Part shown: one piece after another, positions 1,715 through 55,703 of the stretch
Layout of the letters: the number at the start of each line of letters is the position of its first letter
Position numbering within the stretch: position 1 is the stretch's first letter
Program-made: the position numbers and the translations under genes
Notes under the pieces: model-generated
What the model was told of the DNA's origin: nothing
The model's input: only the letters and a program-made list of their open reading frames with translations
The model's database searches: none
NCBI GenBank assembly: GCA_964373295.1
Contig: CAYJUA010000001.1
Coordinates: 4,608-68,607 of the forward strand
Direction: 5' to 3'
DNA length: 64,000 nucleotides
Source: an uncultured Planctomycetia bacterium
Lineage (GTDB): Bacteria > Omnitrophota > Gorgyraeia > 1-14-0-20-64-10

Positions 1715-1765
1715 TCTCCCTTTCGTTTTTCCCTCGTATCATATAACATGAGGATTCAATCTCAA
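1715..1765. promoter_or_regulatory. Divergent intergenic region with an AT-rich island (tttcgttttt ... TATCATATAAC); candidate promoter/operator for lhgO and the UXS operon
   Basis: 51 bp between the divergent starts. The AT-rich 11-mer at about 1737-1747 stands out in GC-rich DNA. An AGGA Shine-Dalgarno motif lies about 11 nt before ATG 1766. Confidence 0.3.
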
Positions 1766-37802: not shown

Positions 37803-39010
37803 GGCGAATTCACTTCGTCCTGGCGGCGAACAACTCCAGCAGCCAGACCCGGGTCACGGTCGAATACGCCAACGAGCTTGCCCGGCGAGGCTGCGAGGTC
37901 ACGGTCTCCGTGCCCCGCTTTGACTTCTTCGACTTCGTGCTCTGGCGGCTGCGCAGGGAGATCGCGCTCGGGCGAAGCCGCCCCCAGCTGTGGCGGCAGT
38001 GGCTCTCGTGGCTCATCCTGCCGGGTCTTCGCTCGCTGGTGTTCAGCCGGCGCTGGATCGGCCAGACGGACCACCGGCTGAACCCCCGGATCCGGGTGCG
38101 CCGGTACGCCTTCCGACCCGGCAGGGGAAACATGCCGGATGCCGACGTGATCCTCGCCTTCCAATGCTATCTCCTCCCCCATCTCATCGGCCTTCCACCC
38201 GGCAAGGGCAGGGTGATCGGGAGCATCCGGCTGGATTACCGGGCGGGAACCGCCGATCCTGTGGAGGAGGTCGCGCAGTGGCGGGAATTCTGCAACTCCT
38301 TCTACCAGCGGTTGAACGTGCCCCTCTTCGCCGTGAGCCGCAGGGTAAAGGAGTCGGCCGTGGAGATGGGGATCGCCGTGGGTGCGGTGATCCAGAACGG
38401 GATCAACATGTCAGAGTTCAGGGACGGCGGCCGCCGCGGCGGCGCGCGTCTTCTCCAGGTCACCCTGTTCACCCATGACCATCCCCAGAAGGGGCAGGAC
38501 TTCGGCTGCGCCGCCCTCCGCCGGATCCGGGAACGCGTCGGAACGCGGCCTGACATCCGCTTCTCCTCGGTGGGCGGAAGCGTCAAGCCCCAGCACCGGG
38601 ACCTCTTCGACCACCATTACGGTTACTTGACCGGCGCCGACTACGTCCGGATGTTCCAGACAACGGACATCTTCATCTTCCCCAGCCAGTATGAGGGGTT
38701 TCCCGCGGTGCCGCTGGAGGCGATGGCATGCGGGTGCGCGCTGGCGACCACGCAGGTCTCGGGCGTCGAGGAGTACGCCGTCCATGGGAAGAACAGCATG
38801 CTCTGCCTCCCCCACGAGGTGGACCGGATGGCGGATCACGTGCTCGCCCTGATCGCCGACGAACGCCTGCGGGATTCGCTCCGGGAAGAGGGGGTCCGAT
38901 CGGCGGCGGAGTATTCCTGGGAAAAGGCGGCGGACCGGCTGTTGGCCTTCCTCGAGGAGCAGGCGACCGCCGGCCGACGCGCCGAGGAGCCGGGGGTGCT
39001 TGTCTCGTGA
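37781..39010 (+). CDS. GT4-family (GT-B) glycosyltransferase
   Basis: C-terminal ...DIFIFPSQYEGFPAVPLEAMACGCALATTQVSGVEEYAVHGKNSML is the GT4 EX7E-type signature. The start is uncertain: GTG 37781 from the track, or TTG 37799. Confidence 0.75.
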   Translation: MGGETALRRIHFVLAANNSSSQTRVTVEYANELARRGCEVTVSVPRFDFFDFVLWRLRREIALGRSRPQLWRQWLSWLILPGLRSLVFSRRWIGQTDHRLNPRIRVRRYAFRPGRGNMPDADVILAFQCYLLPHLIGLPPGKGRVIGSIRLDYRAGTADPVEEVAQWREFCNSFYQRLNVPLFAVSRRVKESAVEMGIAVGAVIQNGINMSEFRDGGRRGGARLLQVTLFTHDHPQKGQDFGCAALRRIRERVGTRPDIRFSSVGGSVKPQHRDLFDHHYGYLTGADYVRMFQTTDIFIFPSQYEGFPAVPLEAMACGCALATTQVSGVEEYAVHGKNSMLCLPHEVDRMADHVLALIADERLRDSLREEGVRSAAEYSWEKAADRLLAFLEEQATAGRRAEEPGVLVS

Positions 39011-39807
39011 ACAACCTGCGCGCGAGGATGCGGGCGCGCGCCCCGGTGTTCGGAGCCTGGACCTCCCTGGGACACCCTTCGATCACCGAGATCTTCGCCC
39101 GGATGGGGGTGGACTTCGTCGGGATCGACATCGAGCACAGCACGATCAGCCAAGAGCAGGCGCAGCGGATCATCGCCGCGGCGCAGGCAGGCGGGACCCG
39201 CTGCCTGCCGCGTGTCGCCTCCCACAACGTGGAGCAGATCCGCAGGGTCCTGGACTCGGGGGCGGACGGCGTGATCGTCCCCAACGTCGGCTCCCTGGCC
39301 GAGGTCAAGCGGCTCGTCGAGTGGGCCAAGTACCCGCCGGAGGGCAAGCGCAGCTACGGGGTGGCCCGGGCGCAGGGCTACGGGTTCGACTTCGGCGAAT
39401 ACGTCACGGAATGGAACCATCGCTCGCCGCTCATCGTCCAGATCGAGTCGGCCGCCGGGGTCGAGCATGTCGAGGAGATCGTGGGCCACCCCGAGGTGGA
39501 TGGGGCGATGGTGGGGCCCTACGACATCTCCGGCTCGCTGGGCATCCCCGGCCAGCTCGAGCACCCGAAGGTGCGCGCCGCGTGCCAGCAGGTGATCGAG
39601 GCCTGCCGGCGGCTGGGCAAGGCCTGCGGCACGCAGCTTGTGGAGCCCAACTCGGGAAGGGTGGCCGATGCCCTGGGGGCCGGCTACACCTTCATCGTCC
39701 TCTCCTCGGATCTCTTCCTCCTCTGGAAATGGTGCGACGCGATGAGGCGCGTGGTGGAGGAGCATCGCCGCTCCGCGGCGGACCGGGTGGGCGGCCGTGA
39801 GCCCTGA
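39007..39807 (+). CDS. HpcH/HpaI-family class-II (pyruvate-dependent) aldolase
   Basis: ...VFGAWTSLGHPSITEIFARMGVDFVGIDIEHSTIS...CLPRVASHNVEQIRRVLDSGADGVIVPNV...KYPPEGKRSYG...IVQIES... is colinear with 2-keto-3-deoxy-sugar-acid aldolases of the HpcH family. Alternative start at ATG 39028. Confidence 0.8.
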   Translation: MNNLRARMRARAPVFGAWTSLGHPSITEIFARMGVDFVGIDIEHSTISQEQAQRIIAAAQAGGTRCLPRVASHNVEQIRRVLDSGADGVIVPNVGSLAEVKRLVEWAKYPPEGKRSYGVARAQGYGFDFGEYVTEWNHRSPLIVQIESAAGVEHVEEIVGHPEVDGAMVGPYDISGSLGIPGQLEHPKVRAACQQVIEACRRLGKACGTQLVEPNSGRVADALGAGYTFIVLSSDLFLLWKWCDAMRRVVEEHRRSAADRVGGREP

Positions 39808-44518: not shown

Positions 44519-45444
44519 GCGGGGCTGTGGGCCAACCTCTCTCGGGGGAAGAGACCGGGCAGAGGATCGCCTTCCCGTGCCCCCTCTGCGGCAGGACGGA
44601 TCTGAAGGTGCTCTACCCGGACACGCTCGGCCAAGAGATGCCGCGCTTCGGGTACGATTTCACGCCGGAGCACACACGGACCTACCGGGTCGTCCTCTGC
44701 CGCCCCTGCCGGCACGCCTTCTGCTCCCCGAGACCCGCGCGCCTGTGGGCGGAATACGCGGAGGTGGAGGACCCTGCCTACCTGGAGCGGCAGGAGGACC
44801 GGATCGCCACCGCTGGCCAGGTGCTCTCGCGCCTCCAACGCTTCGCCCCGTCGGGACGCCTCCTGGACATCGGCTGCGCCACCGGCGATTTCCTCGCCGT
44901 CGCCCGCGAGAACTACCAGGTCGAGGGCTTGGAGCTCTCCGCTTGGGCTGCCGCGATCGCCCGGCGCCGCGGCCTCACCCTCCATGAAACCGACCTGGCC
45001 GGCTTTCACCCCAACGCTCCCTTCGACCTGCTGACCCTGTGGGGAGTGATCGAGCATTTCGAGGACCCGGCGCGGGAGGTGCGCACGATGTCCCGCCTGG
45101 TCCGCCCCGGGGGCCTCGTCTGCCTCTGGACCGGAGACCGGGAGGCCTGGCTGGCCCGGCTGCTGGAGCGGCGGTGGTGGTATATTCAGGGTCAGCACCT
45201 CCAGGTCTTCAGCCGGGCCTCGCTGGAGAAGGTCTTCCGGGACGCCGGCTTCGAGACGCTTTGGGTTGGCCGGTACCCCTGCGTCATGACGATGCGCTCC
45301 ATCGCGAAGTCCCTACGGAGGTACCCGCTGCTGGGATCGGCCACCGCACGGCTGCTGGGCTCGGGGCCGCTGGCATCCCGGTCGGTCACGCTGACCCTGC
45401 CGGGCGAGATGTTCGCAGTCTTCAGGAGGAAAACGTCATCGTGA
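44515..45444 (+). CDS. Class-I SAM-dependent methyltransferase with N-terminal Zn-ribbon
   Basis: CPLCG...CRPCRHAFC Zn-ribbon. SAM motif RLLDIGCATGDFL... Confidence 0.7.
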   Translation: MSGAVGQPLSGEETGQRIAFPCPLCGRTDLKVLYPDTLGQEMPRFGYDFTPEHTRTYRVVLCRPCRHAFCSPRPARLWAEYAEVEDPAYLERQEDRIATAGQVLSRLQRFAPSGRLLDIGCATGDFLAVARENYQVEGLELSAWAAAIARRRGLTLHETDLAGFHPNAPFDLLTLWGVIEHFEDPAREVRTMSRLVRPGGLVCLWTGDREAWLARLLERRWWYIQGQHLQVFSRASLEKVFRDAGFETLWVGRYPCVMTMRSIAKSLRRYPLLGSATARLLGSGPLASRSVTLTLPGEMFAVFRRKTSS

Positions 45445-45581
45445 ATCTGCCGTTGGCCTACATGAACCCCGGCGCGGGGAGCCTCCTGCTCCAGCTGATC
45501 CTGATGGGGACGGCCGGCCTCTTCCTGGCGGGTAAGTCCCTCTGGCACTCCTTCCGATCGCTCTGTTCGCGCAAGAAGTAG
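45441..45581 (+). CDS. Small hydrophobic ORF (46 aa, one predicted TM helix); may instead be the displaced 5' end of the next gene
   Basis: GTGA overlap with the upstream stop. Peptide VNLPLAYMNPGAGSLLLQLILMGTAGLFLAGKSLWHSFRSLCSRKK. See the finding on a possible frameshift. Confidence 0.25.
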   Translation: MNLPLAYMNPGAGSLLLQLILMGTAGLFLAGKSLWHSFRSLCSRKK

Positions 45582-45733
45582 ATTCTCTGGCAGGGGAGCT
45601 GGACGAGCTGCGCCGCTTCCACCGGAATGGGAGCTGGCTGCGGCAGGCGCTGGTCTTCTACTCGGAGACGGCCGGTTACTACCCCTGCTTCCGGCCGGTC
45701 CTCCGCGCCCTCCAGCAGCGCTCGCGGGAGGAG

Positions 45734-46711
45734 ATGGGCTACATCACCTCCGACCCCGCCGACCCGCTGCGGTCCTCCGCGCCGGAAGGCCTGCGGGTGT
45801 TCTGGTTCCGGCGCCTCCTCCCCTTCGTGATCCAGTTCCTCCGCGCGCCAGCCCTGGTTATGACGACGACCGACCTCCACCGCTTCCACCTCCGCCGCTC
45901 CGTCTTCCCCGTGAACCACGTCTACCTGTTCCACGCGCTGGTGAGCACCCACATGATCTATCGCTTCGGCGCCTTCGACCATTACGACACGATCCTCTGC
46001 GGCGGCCCCCACCACGTGCGGGAGATCCGCCGGGCCGAGGAGCTTTACCGGCTCCGGCCCAAGCGCCTGCTCGAGGCAGGCTACCCCCACCTGGACGAAC
46101 TGGCGGATGCCCACCGGCGCCGGCTCGGGCGCCCGCGGGAGGGAAAGGGGACCGTTCTCATCGCGCCCTCCTGGGGGGCGGCGAACATCCTGGAGTCCTG
46201 CGAACCCCGCCTGACCCAGGCCCTTTCCGGGGCGGGGTACCGGGTGATCGTCCGACCGCATCCGGAGTTCTGCAGGAGAAACCCTGATCGGATCGCCCAA
46301 CTTTCAAAAATTCTCGCTTCGAAGGGGGGGGTCATGGACATGGACTACGGCTCCGAGGAATCGCTCCACGCCGCCGACCTGCTGATCACCGATTGGTCCG
46401 GGATCGCGATGGAATACGCCTTCGCCACCGAGAGGCCGGTGCTGTTCCTGGACGTCCTGCGGAAAGTCAATAACCCCAGGTACGAGGAGCTGGGGATCCC
46501 TTCCCTGGAGGCCGAGATCCGGGAAAGGATCGGGCAGGTGGTTTCTCCTGTGGAGGTCGAGCGGATCCCCGGCCGTGCCGAACAGATGCTGCGGGAGGGC
46601 CCGGACTACCGGCCGCGCATCGTTGAGGAGCGCGCCCGACGCCTCTTCAACGCAGGATCCTCCGCCGCGGCCTGCGCCGACTTCCTCCTTGAACTCCGCC
46701 GGCCCGTCTGA
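45734..46711 (+). CDS. TagB/TagF-family (CDP-alcohol phosphotransferase-type, GT-B) protein. The annotated start is probably too far downstream
   Basis: ...KGTVLIAPSWGAANI... and ...ADLLITDWSGIAMEYAFATERPVLFLD... match the TagF catalytic domain. The frame stays open upstream to 45536 and there encodes ALVFYSETAGYYPCFRPVL, a conserved TagF N-terminal motif, but without an ATG, GTG or TTG. Confidence 0.65.
   Translation: MGYITSDPADPLRSSAPEGLRVFWFRRLLPFVIQFLRAPALVMTTTDLHRFHLRRSVFPVNHVYLFHALVSTHMIYRFGAFDHYDTILCGGPHHVREIRRAEELYRLRPKRLLEAGYPHLDELADAHRRRLGRPREGKGTVLIAPSWGAANILESCEPRLTQALSGAGYRVIVRPHPEFCRRNPDRIAQLSKILASKGGVMDMDYGSEESLHAADLLITDWSGIAMEYAFATERPVLFLDVLRKVNNPRYEELGIPSLEAEIRERIGQVVSPVEVERIPGRAEQMLREGPDYRPRIVEERARRLFNAGSSAAACADFLLELRRPV
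46324..46331 (+). repeat. Poly-G tract (G8) inside the TagF-like CDS
   Basis: ...cgaagGGGGGGGGtcatgg... encodes SKGGV. Coordinates are +/-1. Confidence 0.45.
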
Positions 46712-46754
46712 TAGCATGGCTGTCAACTGATAGCTGACAGGTGAACCCCTGCCC
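46709..46754 (+). promoter_or_regulatory. Candidate operator: direct repeat TGATAGC (x2) interleaved with the inverted repeat CTGTCA-n9-TGACAG, immediately upstream of the XRE-HTH nucleotidyltransferase gene
   Basis: tgatagcatggCTGTCAactgatagcTGACAGgtgaa read directly from the sequence. AGGTGA Shine-Dalgarno about 12 nt before GTG 46755. Confidence 0.3.
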
Positions 46755-47924
46755 GTGAAAAGCTCCGCCAAAAAAACCAACGGATCCCGGCCCACGAACG
46801 GCTCCCGGAAGCCCTTCGGGAGTGTGGTCCGCTCCCTCCGCAAAAAGGCCAACTTGAGCCTCCGCGAGATGGCCCGCCGGACGGGGATCACCGCCTCGTA
46901 CCTCAGCGACATCGAGGCCCTCCACCGGCGGCCGCCTTCCAAGGAGGTCATCCAGCGGTTGGCCGCCGAACTGCGCGTCGCCCCGGAGGGGCTGTTCGAC
47001 CTGGCGGGGCTGGACGGCGACCGGATCCCCCCGGACGTCCCCGACATCATCAAATGGAGGCCGGAGTCGGTCTCCCTCCTGCGGGCCATCCGGCACCACC
47101 AATCCTCCTCGCAGCAGATTCGGGACCTCACCCGCCGGGTGGGCGGGGCGGAGGTGCGGGCCCTGATCCTGGCGGCGGGGATGGGCACGCGGCTGAAAGA
47201 ATACACGCAGGACCTCCCCAAGTGCATGGCCGTGGTGCTCAACGGCAAACCGCTCATCGAGATCCAGATGGATACCCTCCGAGCCTGCGGGATCAGCGAC
47301 ATCTCGATCGTCCGGGGGTACAGAGCCGAGAAGATGCGGTTTCCGGAGGTGCGCTGCTACCACAACCCCGACTATGCGCGCACCAACATCCTCGCCTCCC
47401 TATTCAGCGCCGAGGAGGCGCTCGATGGTGACGTGATCGTCTCCTATTCCGACATCTGGTACGAGACCGCCGTGGTGAAGCGGCTCCTCCGGTGCGAGAA
47501 GGACATCGCCATCGGCGTGGACATCGACTGGAAGGAGTATTACCTGGGCCGGAAGGACCACCCCATCGAGGAGGCCGAGAACGTCATCCTCGACAGCGAC
47601 AACCGCGTGGTGAAGATCGGCAAGATCGCCGCTGAGAAGGCGGAGGTCCACGGCGAGTTCATCGGGATGATGAAGCTCACCCGCCGGGGCTGCGAGCTGC
47701 TCCGGCGCCACTACCACCGGGCGAAGGCGGCGCACGAGGGCAAGCCGTTCCAGCGGGCCGCCCGCTTCGAGGAGGCGTACCTGACCGACCTCCTCCAGGA
47801 GATGGCGGACCTCGGGGTGCCGATCCACGGCGAGATCATCGGCTCCGGCTGGAAGGAGATCGACACCGTGGAGGATCTCCAGAAGGCGATCGCTGTTTTC
47901 CATCAGAAGGAGACGCTTTCATGA
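46755..47924 (+). CDS. XRE-family HTH domain fused to a sugar/alcohol-phosphate nucleotidyltransferase (LicC/cytidylyltransferase-like)
   Basis: GTG start. HTH SLREMARRTGITASYLSDIE. Nucleotidyltransferase signature RALILAAGMGTRLKEYTQDLPKCMAVVLNGKPLIE. C-terminal ...HGEIIGSGWKEIDTVEDL. An A7 run sits at codons 6-7. Confidence 0.75.
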   Translation: MKSSAKKTNGSRPTNGSRKPFGSVVRSLRKKANLSLREMARRTGITASYLSDIEALHRRPPSKEVIQRLAAELRVAPEGLFDLAGLDGDRIPPDVPDIIKWRPESVSLLRAIRHHQSSSQQIRDLTRRVGGAEVRALILAAGMGTRLKEYTQDLPKCMAVVLNGKPLIEIQMDTLRACGISDISIVRGYRAEKMRFPEVRCYHNPDYARTNILASLFSAEEALDGDVIVSYSDIWYETAVVKRLLRCEKDIAIGVDIDWKEYYLGRKDHPIEEAENVILDSDNRVVKIGKIAAEKAEVHGEFIGMMKLTRRGCELLRRHYHRAKAAHEGKPFQRAARFEEAYLTDLLQEMADLGVPIHGEIIGSGWKEIDTVEDLQKAIAVFHQKETLS

Positions 47925-48640
47925 TGCAGTCCCAGAATGTTGTCCAGCAGGCCCTCTACAAGAGTCACGGAACCCTGATCCATGCCTGGCGCAACGAAGT
48001 CAAGCACACCTTCGAGATGGTTTCCCGGGACACCGGCATCCCGGTCGAGCGCCTCCGCTCCCTCGAGGCGGGAATGGAGAAGCCCTCCTGGGAGGAGCTG
48101 GAGCTCCTGGCCAGGCAATTCACCGTGAGCGTCCGGGACCTCCTCCCCTTTGAGAACGACCTCGACCGCGGCATGAAGTTCCTGAGGAACCGGGACGCCC
48201 GCGCCTTTGACCAAAAGAGAGCGGGGCAGCTGCAGTACACCTATTGGGAGAGGGTGATGACCTCCGCGATCCCGGGGATCAAGCCGGTCGAACTGCTCCT
48301 CCATCTGAACCGGAGGGAGGAGGTCGTCATGAACCGCGGGCATTTCTTCCATCAGTACACGCAGGTCCTCCACGGCGGGCCTGTGGCCTATCTGTGGGAG
48401 TGGAAGGGCGCCACGCATGAGGATGTCTTCGAGGAAGGGGACTCCTGGCTGATCCCCGGTTTCGTCCCCCACGGCTTCTACTCTCCCGATGCGCAGCGGC
48501 CCGGGCAGATCCTGGCGATCACCTTCGGCCAAAACCTCACCGGGGACGCGCGCCAGGAGCTGGCCCTCCTCGGACGGGAGAACGCCTCTCGGATCGTCTC
48601 CGATGACCAGGACTACTACCCCCAGGAGGGGCGGAAGTGA
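47921..48640 (+). CDS. XRE-like HTH domain fused to a single metal-binding cupin domain (HppE-like architecture; could also be a cupin-sensor regulator)
   Basis: ATGA overlap. HTH TFEMVSRDTGIPVERLRSLEAG. Cupin motifs NRGHFFHQYTQVLHG and GDSWLIPGFVPHGF with conserved His residues. Confidence 0.7.
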   Translation: MMQSQNVVQQALYKSHGTLIHAWRNEVKHTFEMVSRDTGIPVERLRSLEAGMEKPSWEELELLARQFTVSVRDLLPFENDLDRGMKFLRNRDARAFDQKRAGQLQYTYWERVMTSAIPGIKPVELLLHLNRREEVVMNRGHFFHQYTQVLHGGPVAYLWEWKGATHEDVFEEGDSWLIPGFVPHGFYSPDAQRPGQILAITFGQNLTGDARQELALLGRENASRIVSDDQDYYPQEGRK

Positions 48641-48644
48641 GTCG

Positions 48645-50342
48645 ATGACCGAGCGGGCGTCTTCCTTAAGAAAGCGCCTCCGATCCGGGAAGATCGTCCG
48701 GGCCATGGGAGCCCACAATGGGCTGGGGGCCCGACTCATCGAGCGGACCGGCTTCGACGCCGTCTGGGCCAGTGGCTTGGAGATCTCCACCGCCTACGGC
48801 GTGCCCGATGCCAACATCCTCACCATGACGGAAAATCTCGATGCCGCCCGGGCGATCCACGAGGCGACGGCGCTGCCGATCATCTGCGACTGCGACACCG
48901 GCTACGGCAACGCTTCCAACGTCCGCCACATGGTCCGCCGCTACGAGGCGGCGGGGCTGGCGGCCATCGTCATCGAGGACAAGATCTTCCCCAAGGTCAA
49001 CAGCTTCATCCCGGACGGACAGGAGCTGGCCCCCGTGGGCGAGTTCATGGGGCGAATCCGGGCGGCCAAGGCCACCCAACGCAACCCGGATTTCATGGTC
49101 TTCGCGCGGGTGGAAGCGCTGATTGCCGGCTGGGGCCTCGAGGAGGCGATGCGCCGCGCCAATGCCTACGTGGATGCCGGCGCCGACGGGATCGTGATTC
49201 ACTCGAAGGCTTCTTCTCCCGAAGAGGTGCTTGCCTTCGCCCGGAGCTGGAAGCGGCCCGTGCCCCTCGTGGCGATCCCGACCACCTACTACCAAATCAC
49301 GGCCGAGGAGCTGCAGCGGGCAGGCTTCTCCATGGTGATCTACGCCAACCATGGCCTCCGGGCGGCGATCCGCGCGATGGAATCCACCTTCCGCGAGATC
49401 CAGCGGACCGGGACGACCCTGGGAGTGGAGGGAAAGATCGCCACCCTGAAAGAGGTCTTCGAGCTCCAGGGGATGAAGGACCTCAAGGAGGACGAAAAGC
49501 GCTTCTCCGGCGAAGAGCCGATCCGGGTGGTGATCCCCGCGGCCCGCGACCACCGGAGGCAGACGGACCTCTGGGAGCTGCTCCCTGACAAGCCTCTCTG
49601 CATGCTGGAGATGGGAGGGAAGACCCTCCTCGACCGGCAGATGGAGCTTCTCCGCTCGGTGGGTGCCGCCGACATCCACGTGGTCGGCGGCTATCTCCAC
49701 GAGCGGATCAAGGCGGAGGGGGCCCACGTCCTCTTCAACCCGGACTACGCCCGGTACCACTGCGCCCAGTCGATCCTCTTCGCCAAGGAGCACCTCCAGG
49801 GAAGGACCCTGCTGGTCTATTCCGATGTCCTGTTCGACCGACAGATCCTGGAGCGCCTCGTGGAGAGCCCCCACCCCATCACCCTCGTCATCGACCGGGC
49901 CTACCAGACCCTTCCCCTGCGCGAGAAGTCGCTGGACCTCGTTGCGGTGGATGCGGTCGGCGAGGCGGCGGGGCGTCGGCTGCGCATGAACCTGTTCAAG
50001 CCGATCCGGCAGATCGGGAAAGGCGTCGTCCAGCGGCCCACGCACGAGTTCATCGGAGTCGCTTTCCTCCGCGACAACGGAGCCGAGGAGCTCAAGCGCG
50101 CCTGGGAGGAGGCGCTGGCCGAGTTCCGCGGCAAGCCGTTCCATGAAGCGCGCAGCGTGGAGGAGGCTGACCTCACGGACCTGCTCCAGCACATGATCCG
50201 CCGGGGCACCCCCGTCTTCGGGATGGAGATCGAGCACGGCTGGTCCGAGATCCATTCGCGGGACGACTACGATCGGGTGCGGCAGCATTTTCAGAAGCCG
50301 GCCATGGCGCTGGCCGGCGGGAGAAGCCTTTCGCCGCGCTGA
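48645..50342 (+). CDS. Phosphoenolpyruvate phosphomutase (Ppm) fused to a C-terminal nucleotidyltransferase-like domain with a degenerate active-site loop
   Basis: Ppm N-terminus LRKRLRSGKIVRAMGAHNGLGARLIERTGFDAVWASGLE and signature AIVIEDKIFPKVNSF. The C-terminal about 250 aa is a paralog of the 46755 nucleotidyltransferase domain (LTDLLQHMIRRGTPVFGMEIEHGWSEI vs LTDLLQEMADLGVPIHGEIIGSGWKEI), but the glycine-rich loop is VVIPAARDHRRQ instead of LAAGxGTRL. Confidence 0.85.
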   Translation: MTERASSLRKRLRSGKIVRAMGAHNGLGARLIERTGFDAVWASGLEISTAYGVPDANILTMTENLDAARAIHEATALPIICDCDTGYGNASNVRHMVRRYEAAGLAAIVIEDKIFPKVNSFIPDGQELAPVGEFMGRIRAAKATQRNPDFMVFARVEALIAGWGLEEAMRRANAYVDAGADGIVIHSKASSPEEVLAFARSWKRPVPLVAIPTTYYQITAEELQRAGFSMVIYANHGLRAAIRAMESTFREIQRTGTTLGVEGKIATLKEVFELQGMKDLKEDEKRFSGEEPIRVVIPAARDHRRQTDLWELLPDKPLCMLEMGGKTLLDRQMELLRSVGAADIHVVGGYLHERIKAEGAHVLFNPDYARYHCAQSILFAKEHLQGRTLLVYSDVLFDRQILERLVESPHPITLVIDRAYQTLPLREKSLDLVAVDAVGEAAGRRLRMNLFKPIRQIGKGVVQRPTHEFIGVAFLRDNGAEELKRAWEEALAEFRGKPFHEARSVEEADLTDLLQHMIRRGTPVFGMEIEHGWSEIHSRDDYDRVRQHFQKPAMALAGGRSLSPR

Positions 50343-50350
50343 AAGCAGCC

Positions 50351-51484
50351 ATGACCTTGCCGGCCCCATACTGGAACCCGACCCGGCGGCTGATCGCCGA
50401 GGGAGCGCTCGCCCGGATCGGCGAGGCGGCCGGAGAATACCGGCCCAAGAAGATCCTCCTGGTCCTGGGCCGTTCCTCTTTCCGCGGGTCCGCCCATGAC
50501 CGCGCCCTGCGGGACGCCCTCACGGGTTTCCAGGTGGAGGAGTCCAATCCGGTGCAGCACAGCCCCAGCATCGCCTTCATCCAGGAAATGTGGAACGCCC
50601 TGAAGGGGAGGGGCATCGATCTCGTGGTCGGGGTGGGAGGGGGGAGCGTGATCGACTGCGCGAAAGCGATCCGGATCCTTCTCACGCAGGGAGAGGGCAC
50701 CTTGGAGGATTACGCCGAGAAGCGCCGTGCGTTCCGGAAGCCGGGGCTGCCGTTCATCGCCGTGCCCACCACCGCCGGAACCGGCAGCGAGGTGACGCCC
50801 TACTCCTCCCTGCAGACCGCGGCGCACCAGAAGATCAGTCTGACGCACCCCTGGCTTTTCCCGGAGCTGGCGCTCATCGACCCCCTGCTCACCCACTCGA
50901 TGCCCCGCTACGTCACCGCCTGCACGGCGTTGGACGCCCTGGCGCAGGCGATCGAGTCCTTCTGGTCCGTCCACCACACGCCGTTCTCCGAGACGCATTC
51001 GATCCGCGCCATCACCTTGATCCTGGAGAACCTGCCCGTGGTCCTGCGGGAGCCGGGGAACGCCCCTGCCAGGTTCGCCATGTCGGTGGCGAGCTGCGAG
51101 GCAGGGCTGGCGATCACGCAGACCCGCACCACGGCGGTCCACGCCGTTTCCTATCCCCTGACCACCTTCTTCGACATCCCCCACGGCCACGCCTGCGCCC
51201 TCACGCTCCCCTCCTTCATCCGGTACAACGGCACGGCGCTGGAGCCCGTCCGGGGAGTCGTCCTCTGGAGGGCGCTGGGGTGCAGCTCCTGGGAGGAGGC
51301 GGCGCGGCGGGTCGAGCACCTGATGGACGAAGCGGGCGTCGAGCGTTCCCTGCGCAAGATGGGACTGGACGAGAAAGGGATCCAGACGGTGATCGACCAC
51401 GGGTTCCGCTCGGACCGCGTGGTGAACAACCCCCGGGAAGTCACTCAGGAGGCGCTGCGTGAAATCCTCGAAAAGATCTACTGA
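50351..51484 (+). CDS. Iron-containing (group III) alcohol dehydrogenase, phosphonoacetaldehyde-reductase (PhpC/FomC)-like by context
   Basis: ...DLVVGVGGGSVIDCAKAI...PFIAVPTTAGTGSEVTPYSS... and His-rich metal site ...AVHAVSYPLTTFFDIPHGHACAL... are typical of the Fe-ADH family. Confidence 0.8.
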   Translation: MTLPAPYWNPTRRLIAEGALARIGEAAGEYRPKKILLVLGRSSFRGSAHDRALRDALTGFQVEESNPVQHSPSIAFIQEMWNALKGRGIDLVVGVGGGSVIDCAKAIRILLTQGEGTLEDYAEKRRAFRKPGLPFIAVPTTAGTGSEVTPYSSLQTAAHQKISLTHPWLFPELALIDPLLTHSMPRYVTACTALDALAQAIESFWSVHHTPFSETHSIRAITLILENLPVVLREPGNAPARFAMSVASCEAGLAITQTRTTAVHAVSYPLTTFFDIPHGHACALTLPSFIRYNGTALEPVRGVVLWRALGCSSWEEAARRVEHLMDEAGVERSLRKMGLDEKGIQTVIDHGFRSDRVVNNPREVTQEALREILEKIY

Positions 51485-53123
51485 CGCGGCGGGCATGGCC
51501 CCCCCGGACCTCTTCTGGGCGGCGTGGGGCGCCACCACGCTGCTCGTCCAGATCCCGCTGAGCGGGATGATCCTGCAGGACCCCCAATCCCTCCTGCTCG
51601 GCGTCTGGAACCTGAAAACCCTGGCGCTGTTTTGCGCGGTGACCTTCCTGGGCCTCCCCCTTGCGGTGGGGGCCGCCTGGGCCGCGGCGGCCAGGGTCTC
51701 CACGCGCTGGGCCTGCCTCCTCCTGGCGGTTGGGATCGCCTATGTCCTGACGATGCAGATCAATTTCCATTACCTCCAGGTCCGCTTCTTCGATATGGCT
51801 TGGCGCCGCATGGCGGAAGTGGTGCTGTTCGGTGTCGGCGCCGCAGCCTGCTGGGCGGGACGGAGAGGGCTCACCCGGCTTCTCAAGGTCTGCGCCGGGC
51901 TGAGCGCCGCGGTCTGCCTCCTTTTCGCCTTCCAGGCCTGGCCCTCCTCCTCGGGAAAGGCCTCCCCGGCGGATGAGGCTCCTCAGACGCAGGATTCCCC
52001 ATCGGCGGAATTCCCGGTTTTCTTCCTGACCTTCGAGAAGCTCTGCGCCTCGTACGTGGCGGATGAGCAGGGCCGCGTCGTCGCCGACCGGCTGCCCAAC
52101 CTGGCGAAGTTCGCCTCGGAGGCCGACGACTATCCGGAAACCCACGCCAACTGCACGGCCACGGTTTACTCTCTGAAGACCCTCTATTCCGGCAGAGTGA
52201 CCACGCGCGCGAAGGACTGGGCCCGCCGCCCGAACCTGAGGGACATCGTGGGCGCGAACCGCAAGGTCGTGATGCAGCTGGACCTTCTGACAAACTACTG
52301 CGACCCCGAGCGCAACGTCTGCCTGAGGGCGATCGGATTGGAAGGGATCCGCGGGGTGGACCTCATCGCAGGCTGGTACAAAACGTACGTGCTCACGATC
52401 CTGCCGGATCCGCTGGAGCTGCGCCTGACCCTGCGGGGTTGGAACTTCAACCCCTGGACGGACCTGTGGATCCGCGAGGAGGAGGGGTTGGCTCCGGGAG
52501 AGGAAGTACACCACCGGGTAGGCCGCCGGCAATTCCAGCGCCTCCGCGAGGAAATCCAGCGGCAGGGGAATGCCCCGAACCTCTACCTCATGCACAATTT
52601 CATCTCCGACACGCCCGAGGTGAAGGCTTCCGGCCTGTCTGGAAAGCACTGGGAACGGTACGCGGAGGAGCTGGACGGGGCGCGCCGCAACCTGGCCGTC
52701 TTCGATGAGGAACTGGGGAAGTTCTTCGATTTCCTCAAGGAGAAGGGCCTTTACGACCGGTCGCTGATCGTGGTCACCACCGACACCGGATACGACTACG
52801 ATTCGCGGCGGGTCCTGGGCGACGCGGAGCTGCCCCCTTCGCGCGACCTCACGCGGATCTTCTTCGCGCTCAAGCGCCCCGGCCAGAAAGAGGGAAGGGT
52901 CTTCCGCTCGTCCCTGCGGCATGTGGACGTTCTGCCGACCCTGCTCGCCCACTTGGGCATCGATCCCAAACCCTACGGGTTCGAGGGGGTCCCGGTCACG
53001 GACCCTTCCGAGCAGGCCACGCTGCGGGAGCGCCCGCTGGATTTCATGCTGACCTCCGAGCAGGCCGGCGTGCTGCGCTATCGGATGGACCAGCCGCAGG
53101 GCGGCATGCGGAGGGTCCGGTAG
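51459..53123 (+). CDS. Membrane-anchored alkaline-phosphatase-superfamily (sulfatase/LtaS/EptA-like) transferase
   Basis: About 5 N-terminal TM segments. The soluble domain has ...[13 protein letters not shown]..., ...[17 protein letters not shown]... and ...[16 protein letters not shown]..., which are characteristic of sulfatase-fold phospho-headgroup transferases. The track start overlaps the ADH by 26 nt. An in-frame ATG at 51495 is an alternative. Confidence 0.6.
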
Positions 53124-53127
53124 CGCG

Positions 53128-54177
53128 ATGAACATCCTGGTCACCGGGAGCAGCGGCCTGATCGGCTCGGAAGCGGTGGAGTACTTCGACAAGCGCGGGC
53201 ACACCGTTCACGGCGTTGACAACAACATGCGGATGGAGTTCTTCGGGCCGGGAGGGGACACCCGCTGGAACCTGCGGCGGCTGCGGGCCTCCTGCAGGCG
53301 TTTTCAGCACCACGAGCTGGACATCCGCGACCGGGCGGGGGTCCTGCGGCTCTTCGGGGAGGTCCTCATCGATTGGGTGATCCACTGCGCAGCCCAGCCG
53401 TCCCACGATCTGGCCAAGCAGCGGCCCCTGGACGACTTCGACGTCAACGCGGTCGGGACCATCAACCTGTTGGAAGCGACCCGCCGGCACGCGCCGGAAG
53501 CGGTCTTCTGCCTGCTCAGCACGAACAAGGTCTACGGGGACGCACCGAACAAGCTCCCCCTCAAGGAGGAGCCGACCCGCTGGGACTACGCCGACCCCAA
53601 ACAGGCTCACGGCGTGGACGAGCGTTGCCGGCTGGACTTCTCCACCCACAGCGTCTTCGGCGCCAGCAAGGCGGCCGCCGACCTGATGACCCAGGAGTAC
53701 GCCCGCACGTTCGGGATGAAGACCGGCGTTTTCCGGGGGGGATGCCTGACCGGGCCCCAGCATTCGGGCGTGGAGCTGCATGGGTTCCTTTCGTACCTCG
53801 TCAAGGTCGTGAAGAGCGGGACTCCCTACCGGATCTATGGCTACAAGGGCAAGCAGGTCAGGGACCAGATCCACAGCTTCGATGTGATCCGCGCCCTCGA
53901 GGAGTTCGCCGACAATCCCCGCCCGGGCGAGGTCTACAACATCGGAGGGGGGCGGGGCAACAGCCTTTCCATCCTGGAGGCCATCGACACGGCGGAGCGT
54001 CTGACCGGCAGGAAGTTCGAATACGAGTACGTGGAGACGCCAAGGGTCGGCGACCACATCTGCTACATCACCGATTTCCGGAAGCTGCAGTCCCACTATC
54101 CCAACTGGGAGATCACGAGAAGCCTGCTCTCGATTTGGGAGGAGATGATGGAGGCCGTCCCGTGCGCGTCACGCTGA
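53128..54177 (+). CDS. NAD-dependent epimerase/dehydratase, CDP-paratose-2-epimerase-like
   Basis: [52 protein letters not shown]... is the pattern of the RfbE/CDP-tyvelose epimerase subgroup. Confidence 0.7.
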
Positions 54178-55703
54178 TCCACCCACCGCAGTTCGTCGCC
54201 TACGGGAACCAGGTCTCCACCATCGCGATGCCCCCCCTGGGGCTCGCTTACCTGGCCAGCAGCCTGAGGGAAGCGGGCCACCCGGTGTCGCTGGTGGACG
54301 GCTTCGGCGATGGGCTGGACCGGCAGACGCCGTTCGGCCACGGGTCGGTCTACCTCTGGGGGCTTCCGGACGAGGAGATCGTTTCCCGGATCCCGCGAGA
54401 CACCGAGGTGATCGGGGTCGGCCAGATGTTCTCCTCGGGCTGGCTTTCCGTCCGGATCCTCCTGAAGAAGATCAAAGAGGCTTTTCCCTCGGTGCCCCTC
54501 CTCCTGGGCGGAGAGCACGCCTCCGGCCTGCCGGCGATGTGCTTCTCGCAGAGCCCCATCGACCTGCTGGTCCAGGGGGAAGGGGAGGAGACCCTCGTGG
54601 AGCTGGTGGGGAAGCTGGCTTCGGGAGATCCGGTTGAGGCGGTCCCCGGGGTCGGCTACCGCAAGGACGGACGGATGATGCTGAACCCCAGGCGGAACCG
54701 GATTCGCAACGTGAACGACATACCCTGGCCGGCCTGGGATCTCGTAGACCTGGAGGGCTACATCCGGGTGAACTGCCCCCACGGCATCGCGCGCGGGCGC
54801 TTCATCCCCATGCTGGCGACCCGGGGATGCCCGTTTCAGTGCACCTTCTGCACCAGCCCTCAGATGTGGACCCAGCTTTGGATCGCGCGCGACGTCAAAG
54901 GCGTGGTCGACGAGATCGAGCATTACGTCCGCGAGTACCGGATCCAGGACATCCAGTTCGAGGACCTCACCGCGATCGTGCGGAGGGACTGGATCGTCGA
55001 GTTCTGTCGGGAGATCCTGAGAAGAGGGCTCGAGATCACTTTCCAGCTTCCCTCCGGGACCCGCAGCGAAGCGGTGGACAAGGAGGTGGCGGCCCTGATG
55101 AAGCAGGCCGGCTGCCCGGAGTTCTCCTTCGCCCCGGAGTCCGGGGACGAGGAGACCCTGAAGATCATCAAGAAGCAGGTCAACCTGAAGAAGATGTTTG
55201 CCTCTGCGCGCGACGCGATCCGAGCCGGGATCGGCGTCTCCTGCTTCTTCATCATTGGATTTCCCCACGAGCGCTGGAAGCACATCCTCAACACCTACGG
55301 GGCCCTGGTTCGGTGCGCCGTCATGGGGATCAAGACGGTCAGCGTCAACGTCTTCTCGCCGGAGCCCTCCACGCGCCTGTTCAACGAGCTGCTGGAGCAG
55401 AAGAAGATCCAGCTGGACGATCCCTTCCTCTGGTCGCTGTTTGATTTCCCCGCGTTCGGCCGGAAGAAGACGTCGTTCAACGACCGGTTCAGCGACGTCC
55501 AGATCACGGCGATTTCGGTCGGCGGGATGTTCCTTTTCTACGCGATCCGCTACCTCCTGCGCCCCCACCTGCTCATCGGGGTCCTCCGGGAGACGTTTGG
55601 GGAGACCCCCCACAACGACAACCGGCTGGGGAAATACCTCCGCGCGATGCGGAAGGAACTCATCCGCTCGCTCAAGTTCAAGTTCCGGCGGGCGGTGGCG
55701 TAA
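54162..55703 (+). CDS. B12-binding-domain radical SAM enzyme (class B; Fom3/GenK-type C-methyltransferase candidate)
   Basis: GTG start overlapping the epimerase by 16 nt. B12-like N-terminal domain. Canonical cluster motif [17 protein letters not shown]. About 514 aa. Confidence 0.8.

What the first reader, a model, noticed from the sequence alone, without database searches (positions are those of the whole stretch)
46755..50342. Paralogous nucleotidyltransferase domains: one intact and fused to an XRE HTH, one degenerate and fused to Ppm
The C-terminal domain of the Ppm fusion and the C-terminal domain of the XRE-fused protein are clear paralogs, with several colinear blocks (PDYARTNILASLFSAEEALDGDVIVSYSD vs PDYARYHCAQSILFAKEHLQGRTLLVYSD; HGEFIGMMKLTRRG vs THEFIGVAFLRDNG; KPFQRAARFEEAYLTDLLQ vs KPFHEARSVEEADLTDLLQ). 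Only the XRE-fused copy keeps the catalytic glycine-rich loop (LAAGMGTRL). The Ppm-fused copy has VVIPAARDHRRQ at that position. This looks like a catalytic plus pseudo-catalytic pair. It is analogous to large/small subunits of ADP-glucose pyrophosphorylase or to GMPPA/GMPPB, but here it is wired to a DNA-binding domain and to Ppm. It may couple phosphonate flux to transcription of the locus.
Basis: seen in the sequence. Interest (0 to 1): 0.6.

Follow-up and report, generated by a model that had tools for sequence, protein, structure and literature searches.

The report
Dead and live phosphonate cytidylyltransferase paralogs
One operon for a phosphonate-decorated cell-surface sugar encodes two related nucleotide-transferase domains: an intact one fused to a DNA-binding domain that has a conserved binding site in front of its own gene, and a catalytically crippled one fused to the enzyme that makes the C-P bond. 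The crippled form turns out to be the rule for such fusions.

Summary
The C-terminal domains of the HTH protein (46755-47924) and of the PEP mutase (Ppm) fusion (48645-50342) are LicC/PntC-type nucleotidyltransferase (NTase) paralogs, 33% identical over 280 aa (E 9e-36). Only the HTH copy keeps the GxGxR...PK...EID catalytic set.

The Ppm copy has a 3-residue insertion without the Arg, Leu in place of the Lys, and His in place of the metal-binding Asp. This is not local decay. None of 42 Ppm-fused homologues keeps the loop, and they form one old clade across bacteria and archaea.

The HTH is real. A ~30-bp palindrome (core TGTT.GC.AACA) occurs 41 times in HTH-NTase loci (0.5 expected). It lies before the HTH-NTase gene or before a neighbouring phosphonate-binding-protein gene. 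The best match in the whole window lies 5-37 nt upstream of the HTH-NTase start.

An obligate catalytic/pseudo-catalytic complex is not supported, because each protein often occurs without the other.

Best reading:
- the HTH-NTase is a BirA/NadR-like enzyme-repressor;
- the Ppm-fused domain is a conserved pseudo-NTase, probably a ligand sensor on Ppm (inferred).

The gene between them is a half-size MPnS/HEPD homologue, not a regulator.

The parts
46689..46717 (+). Promoter-like stretch: -35-like TTGAAC (46689-46694), 17-nt spacer, -10-like TAGCAT (46712-46717). It overlaps the 3' end of the TagF-like gene.
   Evidence: Read from the sequence. It scores 8/12, below the 9/12 threshold of the consensus scan, which reported no promoter. 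TTCCTCCTTGAACT and TGATA are invariant in the two syntenic relatives L168 and L082. That this is a promoter is an inference.
46718..46749 (.). Operator-like site GGCTGTCAACTGATAGCTGACAGGTGAACCCC, 5-37 nt upstream of the HTH-NTase GTG start codon. It is a diverged copy of the family palindrome [TGTTA-N3-TGTTA]GC[GAACA-N3-TAACA].
   Evidence: It is the best hit of all ~128,000 positions of the window (score 3.3, next best -3.1) to a weight matrix built only from other loci. Inverted repeat 46720-46728/46732-46740, 89% complementary, and direct repeat CTGATAGC at 46708 and 46727. The block AACTGATAGCTGA.AG.TGA is conserved in L168 and L082. No Rfam family matches here.
46755..47924 (+). HTH-NTase, 389 aa. 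It has an XRE-type five-helix HTH (res ~21-86), a helical linker (95-130) and an intact LicC/PntC-type nucleotidyltransferase (134-389). Proposed function: phosphonate cytidylyltransferase and autoregulator.
   Evidence: Pfam. LicC 1jyk E 3e-15 and PntC-AEPT 6pd1 E 4e-7. Family of >2600 proteins, with both the HTH and the catalytic residues invariant. AF2 model pLDDT 82, HTH >90.
47169..47228 (+). Intact catalytic signature of the HTH copy: LAAGMGTRL (47169-47195) and DLPKCM (47211-47228). This equals GXG(T/S)RX4-8PK.
   Evidence: Consensus as given in PMC6697681.
47850..47867 (+). WKEIDT: the Glu/Asp metal-ligand motif of the HTH copy (LicC E216/D218 equivalents).
47921..48640 (+). Single-module (239 aa) homologue of methylphosphonate synthase (MPnS), HEP dioxygenase (HEPD) and HppE. 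Its 'HTH' is the alpha-domain of that enzyme family.
   Evidence: 6b9s MPnS E 3e-43, with both halves of MPnS aligning to it; 6b9r HEPD E 2e-35; HppE 5u55 E 6e-12. Fe ligands are kept: GHFFHQ 48338-48355 and FVPHGF 48461-48478. Syntenic in L082, L167, L168 and the P0042 contig.
48645..49499 (+). PEP mutase (Ppm) domain of the fusion, with the Ppm-specific EDKIFPKVNS motif at 48975-49004.
   Evidence: Pfam PEP_mutase E 9e-61. 57-68% identity to annotated PEP mutases. Motif located.
49500..50342 (+). NTase': a degenerate LicC/PntC-fold domain fused to Ppm. Loop IPAARDHRRQTDL 49533-49571 (no GxGxR, +3 residues); DKPLCM 49587-49604 (Lys replaced by Leu); LVYSD 49812-49826 (Asp kept); WSEIHS 50241-50258 (Asp replaced by His).
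   Evidence: AF2 pLDDT 83.6 with the core >90. Foldseek best hits LicC 1jyk (TM 0.82 on target) and PntC 6pd2. 23 invariant columns among 10 clade members at 31-58% identity.
45734..46711 (+). TagF-like CDP-alcohol phosphotransferase (Glyphos_transf). It is the likely user of the CMP-phosphonate and a frequent neighbour of HTH-NTase genes.
   Evidence: Pfam. Neighbourhoods.
50351..51484 (+). Fe-dependent alcohol dehydrogenase (FomC/PhpC-like), next gene in the operon.
   Evidence: Pfam. Syntenic.
51459..53123 (+). Membrane protein with a sulfatase/LtaS-like domain, a likely head-group transferase.
   Evidence: Pfam, weak: E 1.8e-5, 24.7 bits, just under the cut-off of 25. Syntenic.

Best explanation
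The interval is the core of an operon that makes a hydroxyalkyl- or methyl-phosphonate, activates it with CTP and attaches it to a surface glycan. It holds two ancient paralogs of the LicC/PntC cytidylyltransferase with different jobs.

(1) The HTH-NTase is the working cytidylyltransferase and also a DNA-binding regulator. Its XRE domain recognises a ~30-bp palindrome that lies over and just after the promoter of its own operon here. In other organisms the palindrome lies in front of a phosphonate-binding-protein/ABC importer gene. The placement suggests repression. By analogy with BirA and NadR, occupancy of the NTase site (CTP, phosphonate or CMP-phosphonate) would set DNA binding.

(2) The domain fused to Ppm is a pseudo-NTase. 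It keeps the fold and many conserved pocket residues, but has lost the PPi-site Arg, the catalytic Lys and one metal ligand. It most likely binds a nucleotide or CMP-phosphonate and modulates Ppm (a GMPPA- or HisZ-like sensor, acting in cis).

Shown by computation: paralogy; loss of catalytic residues; clade-wide conservation and common origin of the degenerate form; retained fold; the operator motif, its specificity to HTH-NTase loci and its presence in the window.

Inferred: enzyme substrates; repression; ligand control; any sensor role of NTase'.
For: Paralogy. Motif states: against the consensus and mutagenesis data of PMC6697681. Ppm-fused domains: 0/42 keep G.[GSA].R, whereas 65/87 non-Ppm relatives keep all three motifs; 75 of 76 fusions in genome loci are degenerate. 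42/43 fused domains fall in one NJ clade that holds no intact sequence, with motif columns excluded. Fold. Purifying selection outside the loop. Operator: core found 40x against 0.65 in shuffles; 41 hits in 0.63 Mb of HTH-NTase loci against 1 in 1.17 Mb of control loci. Position: 20-90 nt before the HTH-NTase start, or ~35 nt before a PF12974 phosphonate-binding-protein gene. Window top hit at 46718. Top hit per locus lies upstream of HTH-NTase in L082, L048, L084, L166, L153 and L087. Footprint. The HTH is invariant across the family and confidently modelled. Phosphonate context of HTH-NTase genes: Ppm, MPnS/HEPD-like, Fe-ADH and PhnD-like importer neighbours.
Against: There is no biochemical or DNA-binding data of any kind. 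The window's operator copy is diverged: 2 mismatches in the 10 specified bases of the core, matrix score only 3.3. Two HTH-NTase+Ppm loci (L167, L016) show no site. The promoter is below the scan threshold. The sensor role of NTase' rests only on conservation and analogy. Some Ppm-NTase' genes sit alone, without Ppd or any NTase (L013; Nitrospina L031), so the domain may do something I have not thought of. My sample of fusions was gathered by similarity to the degenerate domain. It covers C-terminal fusions only and may not represent all Ppm-PF12804 fusions counted in RefSeq.
Confidence: 0.55

Rival explanations
1. One reading: the two proteins form an obligate hetero-oligomer of catalytic and pseudo-catalytic subunits (as in AGPase small/large or GMPPB/GMPPA). 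This would physically link Ppm, the NTase and DNA binding.
For: Both are in one operon, two genes apart, in at least five related loci: the window, L082/83, L167, L168 and the P0042 contig; also L016 and L048. Fusions that have lost the Lys have an intact NTase within 10 kb far more often (24/43) than those that keep it (4/33).
Against: Most HTH-NTase loci have no Ppm within reach, and several pair with a phosphonate importer instead. Most partners of Ppm-NTase' lack an HTH. 10 of 24 Lys-lost fusions with full 5-kb flanks have no partner within 10 kb. LicC and Ari-PntC are monomers (PMC6697681).
Confidence: 0.12
2. The Ppm-fused domain is still an enzyme with a remodelled active site. For example, it could nucleotidylate phosphonopyruvate or another early intermediate and so pull the unfavourable Ppm equilibrium. 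Its basic inserted loop and the new His would replace the lost residues.
For: There is strong conservation over a wide phylogenetic span. The YSD Asp and the Glu of EIH are kept, the His is nearly universal (67 of 76 loci), and the window loop is rich in Arg/His. No Ppd is found in the window or its syntenic relatives. Some fusions stand without any other NTase or Ppd.
Against: The loop sequence is not conserved between subclades (DHxxQxD, APRNQES, E-DPV, F-EKE). That fits a relaxed site, not a rebuilt one. No invariant basic residue replaces R15 or K25. Mutating either residue in Tde-PntC, FrbH or YgbP cripples activity.
Confidence: 0.15
3. The degenerate domain is only a structural appendage, serving oligomerisation, solubility, or docking of Ppm to the membrane glycan machinery. 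It has no ligand binding and no regulatory role.
For: The catalytic site is lost. The domain persists in loci of very different composition, including housekeeping surroundings in Nitrospina.
Against: Conserved positions include pocket-type residues shared with active paralogs (PAA, N of NPDY, YSD, EFIG, LTDLLQ, GW.EI). This is not expected for a mere spacer.
Confidence: 0.15
4. The N-terminal HTH of the NTase is not a DNA-binding domain. It would be a structural alpha-domain like that of HppE/HEPD/MPnS, which is encoded by the next gene.
For: The neighbouring cupin enzyme has an XRE-like alpha-domain that is not known to bind DNA. The two N-termini are weakly similar: 28% over 58 aa, E 9e-5.
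Against: The Pfam HTH_3 match is strong (E 3.7e-12, against 1e-3 for the cupin). The best PDB relatives of the N-terminus are SinR and other XRE repressors. A conserved palindrome is specifically associated with the gene family.
Confidence: 0.04

Closest known systems
LicC (S. pneumoniae CTP:phosphocholine cytidylyltransferase, 1JYK) and PntC (phosphonate cytidylyltransferases Ari1348, Tde1415; 6PD1/6PD2)
   Same: Both window domains share this fold and family: sequence E 3e-15 and 2e-6 to 1jyk, and Foldseek top hits for NTase'. The HTH copy has the complete GXG(T/S)RX4-8PK signature and sits in a phosphonate/TagF-like context, as PntC does.
   Different: The HTH copy carries an N-terminal XRE DNA-binding domain and a helical linker not described for LicC or PntC. 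The Ppm copy lacks the Arg, Lys and Asp that define catalysis.
Ppm-PF12804 fusions and 'two PntCs, one fused to Ppm' clusters (Rice et al. 2019, PMC6697681; Li & Horsman 2022, PMC8942020)
   Same: The architecture is the same: PEP mutase with a MobA-like NTP-transferase domain, plus a second NTase gene in the cluster.
   Different: Both papers call the fused domain a PntC cytidylyltransferase. Neither text contains 'catalytically', 'degenerate', 'helix-turn-helix' or 'regulator' in this connection. Here the fused domain is shown to lack the catalytic signature in every Ppm-fused sequence examined.
GMPPA/GMPPB and ADP-glucose pyrophosphorylase large/small subunits (own knowledge; GMPPB appears as 7d72)
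   Same: A catalytically inactive NTase paralog is retained next to an active one. The inactive copy keeps a nucleotide-sugar-type pocket and serves regulation.
   Different: Those are obligate hetero-oligomers of two NTase subunits. Here the dead copy is fused to a different enzyme (the first enzyme of the pathway), and co-occurrence with the live copy is facultative.
BirA and NadR, bifunctional enzyme-repressors (own knowledge)
   Same: An N-terminal HTH is fused to an enzyme that forms a nucleotidylated intermediate or product of the regulated pathway. The operator overlaps the pathway promoter.
   Different: The enzyme fold is different (LicC-type NTase), the HTH is XRE-type, and the pathway is different (phosphonate activation or uptake). 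Ligand-dependent DNA binding is untested.
HisZ/HisG (own knowledge)
   Same: A dead paralog of a later, substrate-activating enzyme is attached to the first committed enzyme of the pathway as a regulatory module.
   Different: HisZ is a separate subunit, and its role in feedback is proven. Here the module is fused, and its role is only inferred.

Membership tests
LicC/PntC-type cytidylyltransferase (PF12804), tested on the HTH-fused domain | GXG(T/S)RX4-8PK signature with the PPi-site Arg and the catalytic Lys | tested here: met
   LAAGMGTRLKEYTQDLPK. G142, G144, R146 and K156 are invariant in 12 family members.
LicC/PntC-type cytidylyltransferase (PF12804), tested on the HTH-fused domain | Metal-ligand acidic residues (LicC D107, E216, D218 equivalents) | tested here: met
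   YSD (D233) and EID (E368, D370) are invariant.
LicC/PntC-type cytidylyltransferase (PF12804), tested on the HTH-fused domain | CTP-dependent formation of a CMP-phosphonate | not testable with these tools
   Only genomic context speaks for it.
LicC/PntC-type cytidylyltransferase, tested on the Ppm-fused domain (NTase') | Family fold and profile match | tested here: met
   PF12804 36.2 bits against a cut-off of 27. Foldseek 1jyk E 2e-14, TM 0.82 on target.
LicC/PntC-type cytidylyltransferase, tested on the Ppm-fused domain (NTase') | GXG(T/S)R loop with Arg | tested here: not met
   PAARDHRRQTDL with a 3-residue insertion. 0 of 42 Ppm-fused homologues match G.[GSA].R.
LicC/PntC-type cytidylyltransferase, tested on the Ppm-fused domain (NTase') | Catalytic Lys of the PK motif | tested here: not met
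   DKPLCM: the position holds Leu (Leu or Val throughout the subclade).
LicC/PntC-type cytidylyltransferase, tested on the Ppm-fused domain (NTase') | Second metal-ligand Asp (EID) | tested here: not met
   The motif reads EIH. His occupies this position in 67 of 76 fusion loci.
PEP mutase | PF13714 match and the Ppm-specific EDKXXXXXNS motif | tested here: met
   E 8.9e-61. EDKIFPKVNS at residues 111-120.
XRE-family DNA-binding regulator | HTH_3 domain with a conserved recognition helix | tested here: met
   E 3.7e-12. The SxSYLxDIE helix is conserved. Five-helix model with pLDDT >90.
XRE-family DNA-binding regulator | Cognate palindromic operator near the regulated genes | tested here: met
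   Computational only: about 77-fold enrichment, specific to HTH-NTase loci. The window's best hit lies upstream of the gene.
XRE-family DNA-binding regulator | Demonstrated DNA binding and transcriptional effect | not testable with these tools
   Needs EMSA or footprinting and reporter assays.
GMPPA/GMPPB- or AGPase-like catalytic/pseudo-catalytic hetero-oligomer | Consistent co-occurrence of the two paralogs | tested here: not met
   An intact partner lies within 10 kb in 14/24 (Lys-lost type) and 0/15 (Lys-kept type) loci with full flanks. HTH-NTase genes usually occur without a Ppm fusion.
GMPPA/GMPPB- or AGPase-like catalytic/pseudo-catalytic hetero-oligomer | Physical complex of the two paralogs | not testable with these tools
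   No multimer prediction or biochemistry was available.
MPnS/HEPD/HppE non-haem iron enzymes (the intervening gene 47921-48640) | Fe ligands (2-His-1-Gln/Glu) in a cupin preceded by an alpha-domain | tested here: met
   The H..Q of GHFFHQ and the H of FVPHGF align to MPnS H148/Q152/H190 (residue numbering from own knowledge; alignment).
MPnS/HEPD/HppE non-haem iron enzymes (the intervening gene 47921-48640) | Two tandem alpha+cupin modules, as in MPnS and HEPD | tested here: not met
   239 aa, a single module. Both MPnS halves align to it. In this respect it resembles HppE.

The most novel reading that the evidence does not exclude
The C-terminal PF12804 domain fused to PEP mutase has so far been counted as a PntC cytidylyltransferase; together with any N-terminal fusions it is present in about a third of known PEP mutases (PMC6697681). 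It is an ancient pseudoenzyme family that senses CTP or CMP-phosphonate and gates the first committed step of phosphonate synthesis. The HTH-NTase is a previously undescribed family of enzyme-repressors with a defined operator. It controls phosphonate synthesis or phosphonate import in many lineages, including abundant marine bacteria whose loci start right after the 23S rRNA gene.
Probability: 0.3. Interest if true: 0.8.

Novelty: new variant of a known kind. Interest (0 to 1): 0.62.

Why it matters
Phosphonates make up a large share of marine dissolved organic phosphorus and decorate many cell surfaces, but how their synthesis is controlled is essentially unknown.

If the Ppm-fused domain is catalytically dead, genome surveys that count it as evidence of "nucleotidyl activation" need revising. 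The commonest PEP mutase architecture would then carry a built-in regulatory module.

If the HTH-NTase binds the palindrome found here, it offers three things. It would be the first candidate transcription factor and operator for phosphonate tailoring or uptake. Its regulon could be predicted directly from sequence. It would also be a simple enzyme-repressor system to test with EMSA and nucleotide ligands.

Tried and rejected
- **Exact-contig look-up.** The look-up of the 100%-identical NCBI protein P0038 found no contig, and its cluster carries no name or accession. The closest loci are Omnitrophota/Planctomycetia MAGs.
- **Ppm-domain search.** The third homology search, with the Ppm domain, was meant to sample fusions without bias. 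It returned almost only stand-alone mutases, so it only confirmed that the domain is a bona fide Ppm.
- **Search for Ppd.** I looked for a phosphonopyruvate decarboxylase across the whole 64-kb window by Pfam and found none.
- **Promoter scan.** The consensus promoter/terminator scan of 45400-51600 found no promoter and only chance-level terminators.
- **Rfam.** A scan of 45500-51600 at E<=1 gave nothing, so the upstream element is not a known RNA motif.
- **Half-site matrix.** A half-site-only weight matrix did not single out the window site. Only the full 32-nt matrix did.
- **Shared alpha-domain idea.** I considered that the NTase's HTH might be the same kind of alpha-domain as in the neighbouring HEPD/MPnS-like enzyme. 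I rejected this after finding the operator.
- **Recent-duplication idea.** I considered that the two NTase domains arose by recent tandem duplication. I rejected this because the degenerate clade is old and monophyletic.
- **Literature.** Searches for a described HTH-cytidylyltransferase regulator, or for a description of the fused domain as inactive, found nothing.

Full report
**What is in the interval.** The interval holds three tightly packed genes on the + strand:
- 46755-47924 (389 aa);
- 47921-48640 (239 aa, with a 4-nt overlap onto the first gene);
- 48645-50342 (565 aa; the listed ORF starts at 48489, but ATG 48645 follows the previous stop by 4 nt).

Pfam gives HTH_3 + NTP_transf_3 for the first gene, a weak HTH_3 only for the second, and PEP_mutase + NTP_transf_3 for the third. 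They sit in a long + strand glycan-biosynthesis island. A TagF-like phosphotransferase (45734-46711) lies upstream. A Fe-alcohol dehydrogenase (50351-51484), an LtaS/sulfatase-like membrane protein (51459-53123), an epimerase and a B12-radical-SAM enzyme lie downstream.

BLASTP of the two NTase-bearing proteins gives 33% identity over 280 residues, E 9e-36. Both domains hit LicC (1jyk): E 3e-15 for the HTH copy and 2e-6 for the Ppm copy. The HTH copy also hits PntC-AEPT (6pd1).

The HTH copy has the full GXG(T/S)RX4-8PK signature (LAAGMGTRLKEYTQDLPK) and the EID metal-ligand motif. The Ppm copy differs at three catalytic sites:
- its loop reads PAARDHRRQTDL, with a 3-residue insertion and no Arg in register;
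- DKPLCM has Leu where the Lys should be;
- the metal-ligand motif reads EIH.

Rice et al. 2019 (PMC6697681) define this signature. They report <10% activity for R15A, K25A and K153A of Tde-PntC, and loss of activity for the Lys mutants of FrbH and YgbP. By the family's own criteria the Ppm-fused domain should not be a cytidylyltransferase.

**The degenerate form is a clade, not an accident.**
- Close relatives of the fused domain (48-72% identical) all share the inserted loop PAA[G/R/A][D/E]H..Q.D, P[L/V]CM and EIH.
- An exhaustive profile-free search found 2640 relatives. I classified the best 150 hits of that search, together with the homologues, by motif. Of those with both motif regions present, 0 of 42 Ppm-fused domains match G.[GSA].R. 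In contrast, 65 of 87 domains not fused to Ppm keep all three motifs.
- A scan of 185,579 species-representative genomes returned 80 loci from Omnitrophota, Planctomycetia, Nitrospinota, Dehalococcoidia, ANME-1, Woesearchaeota and others. 75 of 76 fusions are degenerate. The scan patterns included the EIH motif, so this set is biased towards it.
- In an NJ tree built without the motif columns, 42 of 43 fused domains fall in one clade that contains no loop-intact sequence.
- Outside the loop the domain is well conserved: 23 invariant columns in ten sequences at 31-58% identity.
- An AF2 model is confident (pLDDT 83.6, core >90). Its best structural matches are LicC (TM 0.82 on target) and PntC.

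The loop itself differs between subclades (DHxxQxD, APRNQES, E-DPV, F-EKE). This looks like a relaxed PPi site, not a rebuilt one. The literature held here treats the fused domain as a PntC and does not mention degeneracy.

**The pair idea.**
- *HTH-NTase family.* It is large: more than 2600 hits, and nearly all of the top 120 have HTH + NTase at 50% identity or more. The HTH and the catalytic residues are invariant.
- *Conserved module.* In four relatives of the window the module TagF-like / HTH-NTase / half-size cupin / Ppm-NTase' / Fe-ADH / LtaS-like is conserved. A fifth, L167, has the same core plus Ppd.
- *HTH-NTase without the Ppm fusion.* Among 80 metagenome loci for HTH-NTase, almost none has a Ppm within the available flanks. 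In L166 the neighbours are a PhnD-type phosphonate-binding protein, an ABC importer and a sulfatase. This looks like a scavenging version of the pathway, analogous to choline uptake feeding LicC.
- *Ppm-NTase' without the HTH-NTase.* Among Ppm-NTase' loci, an HTH-bearing partner is seen only in L016 and L048. Others have a plain NTase or none.
- *Partner frequency by fusion type.* An intact NTase lies within 10 kb in 24/43 loci whose fused domain has lost the Lys, but in only 4/33 whose fused domain keeps it. The second group is mostly Nitrospina, so these loci are phylogenetically non-independent.

This pattern fits a division of labour. It does not fit an obligate hetero-oligomer.

**The HTH binds something specific.** Upstream regions of HTH-NTase genes share a ~30-bp palindrome, [TGTTA-N3-TGTTA]GC[GAACA-N3-TAACA].
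- *Enrichment.* The exact core TGTT.GC.AACA occurs 40 times in the 81 loci against 0.65 in shuffles. It occurs 41 times in 0.63 Mb of HTH-NTase loci (0.53 expected from composition). In 1.17 Mb of control Ppm-NTase' loci it occurs once (1.06 expected).
- *Position.* It lies either 20-90 nt before the HTH-NTase start, or just after its stop, about 35 nt before a gene for a PF12974 phosphonate-binding protein (E 1e-53).
- *In the window.* A matrix built from these sites, without the window or its close relatives, gives its best score of the whole 64-kb window (both strands) at 46718-46749. That is 5-37 nt before the GTG of the HTH-NTase (score 3.3, next best -3.1). The site contains an inverted repeat and a direct repeat.
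- *In close relatives.* The site is conserved in relatives whose HTH-NTase is 80% and 70% identical to the window's protein, together with a -35-like TTGAAC.
- *In other loci.* The per-locus best hit is upstream of the HTH-NTase in L082, L048, L084, L166, L153 and L087. L167 and L016 have none.
- *Caveats.* No Rfam family matches. The promoter is sub-threshold in the consensus scan, and the window site is diverged. I therefore rate the window-specific claim lower than the family-level claim.

**Mechanism proposed.**
- *Shown by computation:* the paralogy; the intact and crippled catalytic sets; the retained fold; the old common origin of the crippled form; the operator motif and its placement.
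- *Inferred:* the HTH-NTase makes the CMP-phosphonate used by the TagF-like transferase, and represses its own operon (or an importer operon elsewhere) according to what occupies its NTase site, as BirA and NadR do. NTase' binds nucleotide or CMP-phosphonate without turnover and tunes Ppm, a cis version of GMPPA or HisZ logic.

**The middle gene is not a regulator.** It matches MPnS (6b9s, E 3e-43, both halves of MPnS aligning to it), HEPD (6b9r) and HppE (5u55). It keeps the H..Q...H iron ligands. It is a single-module member of that oxygenase family, so its 'HTH' is the family's alpha-domain. Full-length (467-aa) versions follow the HTH-NTase in L084/85 and L153.

**Novelty.** The Ppm-PF12804 architecture and clusters with two 'PntCs' are known. 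Pseudo-NTase partners and enzyme-repressors are known kinds. What appears new, within the library I could search (which misses most subscription journals), is:
- that the Ppm-fused domain is uniformly non-canonical;
- the HTH-NTase family with its operator;
- the combination of the two in one operon.

I classify it as a new variant of a known kind, with interest 0.62.

Noticed in passing
window 47921-48640: A half-size (239 aa, one alpha+cupin module) homologue of methylphosphonate synthase and HEP dioxygenase. The 2-His-1-Gln ligands are intact. It has Ile at the position of MPnS I184 and Ala at that of F162 (MPnS residue numbering from own knowledge). 226-242-aa versions are syntenic in four relatives, and 467-aa versions occur in others. 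Its product (methyl-, hydroxymethyl- or another phosphonate) cannot be told from sequence.
   Followed up: partly
whole window; 62527-63507; 38728-39807; 6697-8802: No phosphonopyruvate decarboxylase is found anywhere in the 64 kb, nor within the available flanks (~10 kb) of the syntenic relatives L082/83 and the P0042 contig. L167 and L081 do have one. Candidate alternative drivers of the Ppm equilibrium are a D-2-hydroxyacid dehydrogenase (VlpB-like?), an HpcH/HpaI aldolase and a fused E1-type TPP enzyme.
   Followed up: partly
L111 1-114, L134 1-77, L163 1-165: In several AT-rich marine loci the HTH-NTase gene, with its operator, starts right after the 3' end of the 23S rRNA gene. From my own knowledge this recalls the SAR11 hypervariable region between the 23S and 5S rRNA genes. 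If so, the family would be very abundant in the ocean.
   Followed up: partly
L166 8542-17867; L139 11184-12050 and many of L090-L158: A scavenging variant of the module: TagF-like, HTH-NTase, operator, then a PhnD-like phosphonate-binding protein with an ABC importer and a sulfatase, without Ppm. This suggests that imported phosphonates are cytidylylated and attached to the surface instead of being degraded.
   Followed up: partly
L031 9041-10774 and ~30 other Nitrospina loci: Nitrospina Ppm-NTase' genes (loop GE-DPV, Lys kept, EIH) sit among housekeeping genes (RseP, ProRS, RimP, NusA, IF-2). No Ppd, ADH or second NTase lies within 10 kb.
   Followed up: partly
L013 9146-10903: A close relative of the window's Ppm-NTase' stands alone inside a glycan cluster (GT2, methyltransferase, GT87, GT1, Asn synthase, a pyruvate-kinase barrel-only protein), without Ppd, ADH or NTase.
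   Followed up: no
window 4183-5574: A second DNA-binding-domain/NTase fusion in the same island: a winged HTH (HTH_24/MarR_2) followed by an NTP_transferase domain (463-aa ORF).
   Followed up: no
window 593-4108: An NAD-dependent epimerase/dehydratase interrupted by an intein with a LAGLIDADG endonuclease domain (Intein_splicing E 1e-21).
   Followed up: no
window ~54174-55703 and 18320-20017: Two B12-binding radical-SAM enzymes. The first lies three genes downstream of the Ppm fusion and could be a Fom3/PhpK-like C- or P-methyltransferase acting on a CMP-phosphonate. A similar gene lies next to the NTase in L081 and L166.
   Followed up: no
window 45438-45581; L082 8610-8753; L168 8628-8771: A conserved ~47-aa hydrophobic peptide gene (…AYMNPG.G.L..QL…RKK*) lies just upstream of the TagF-like gene in the window and its relatives.
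   Followed up: partly
L167 15868-17150: In one relative a NUDIX hydrolase and a cytidylate kinase follow Ppm, Ppd and ADH. This fits CMP-phosphonate turnover and CMP recycling.
   Followed up: no
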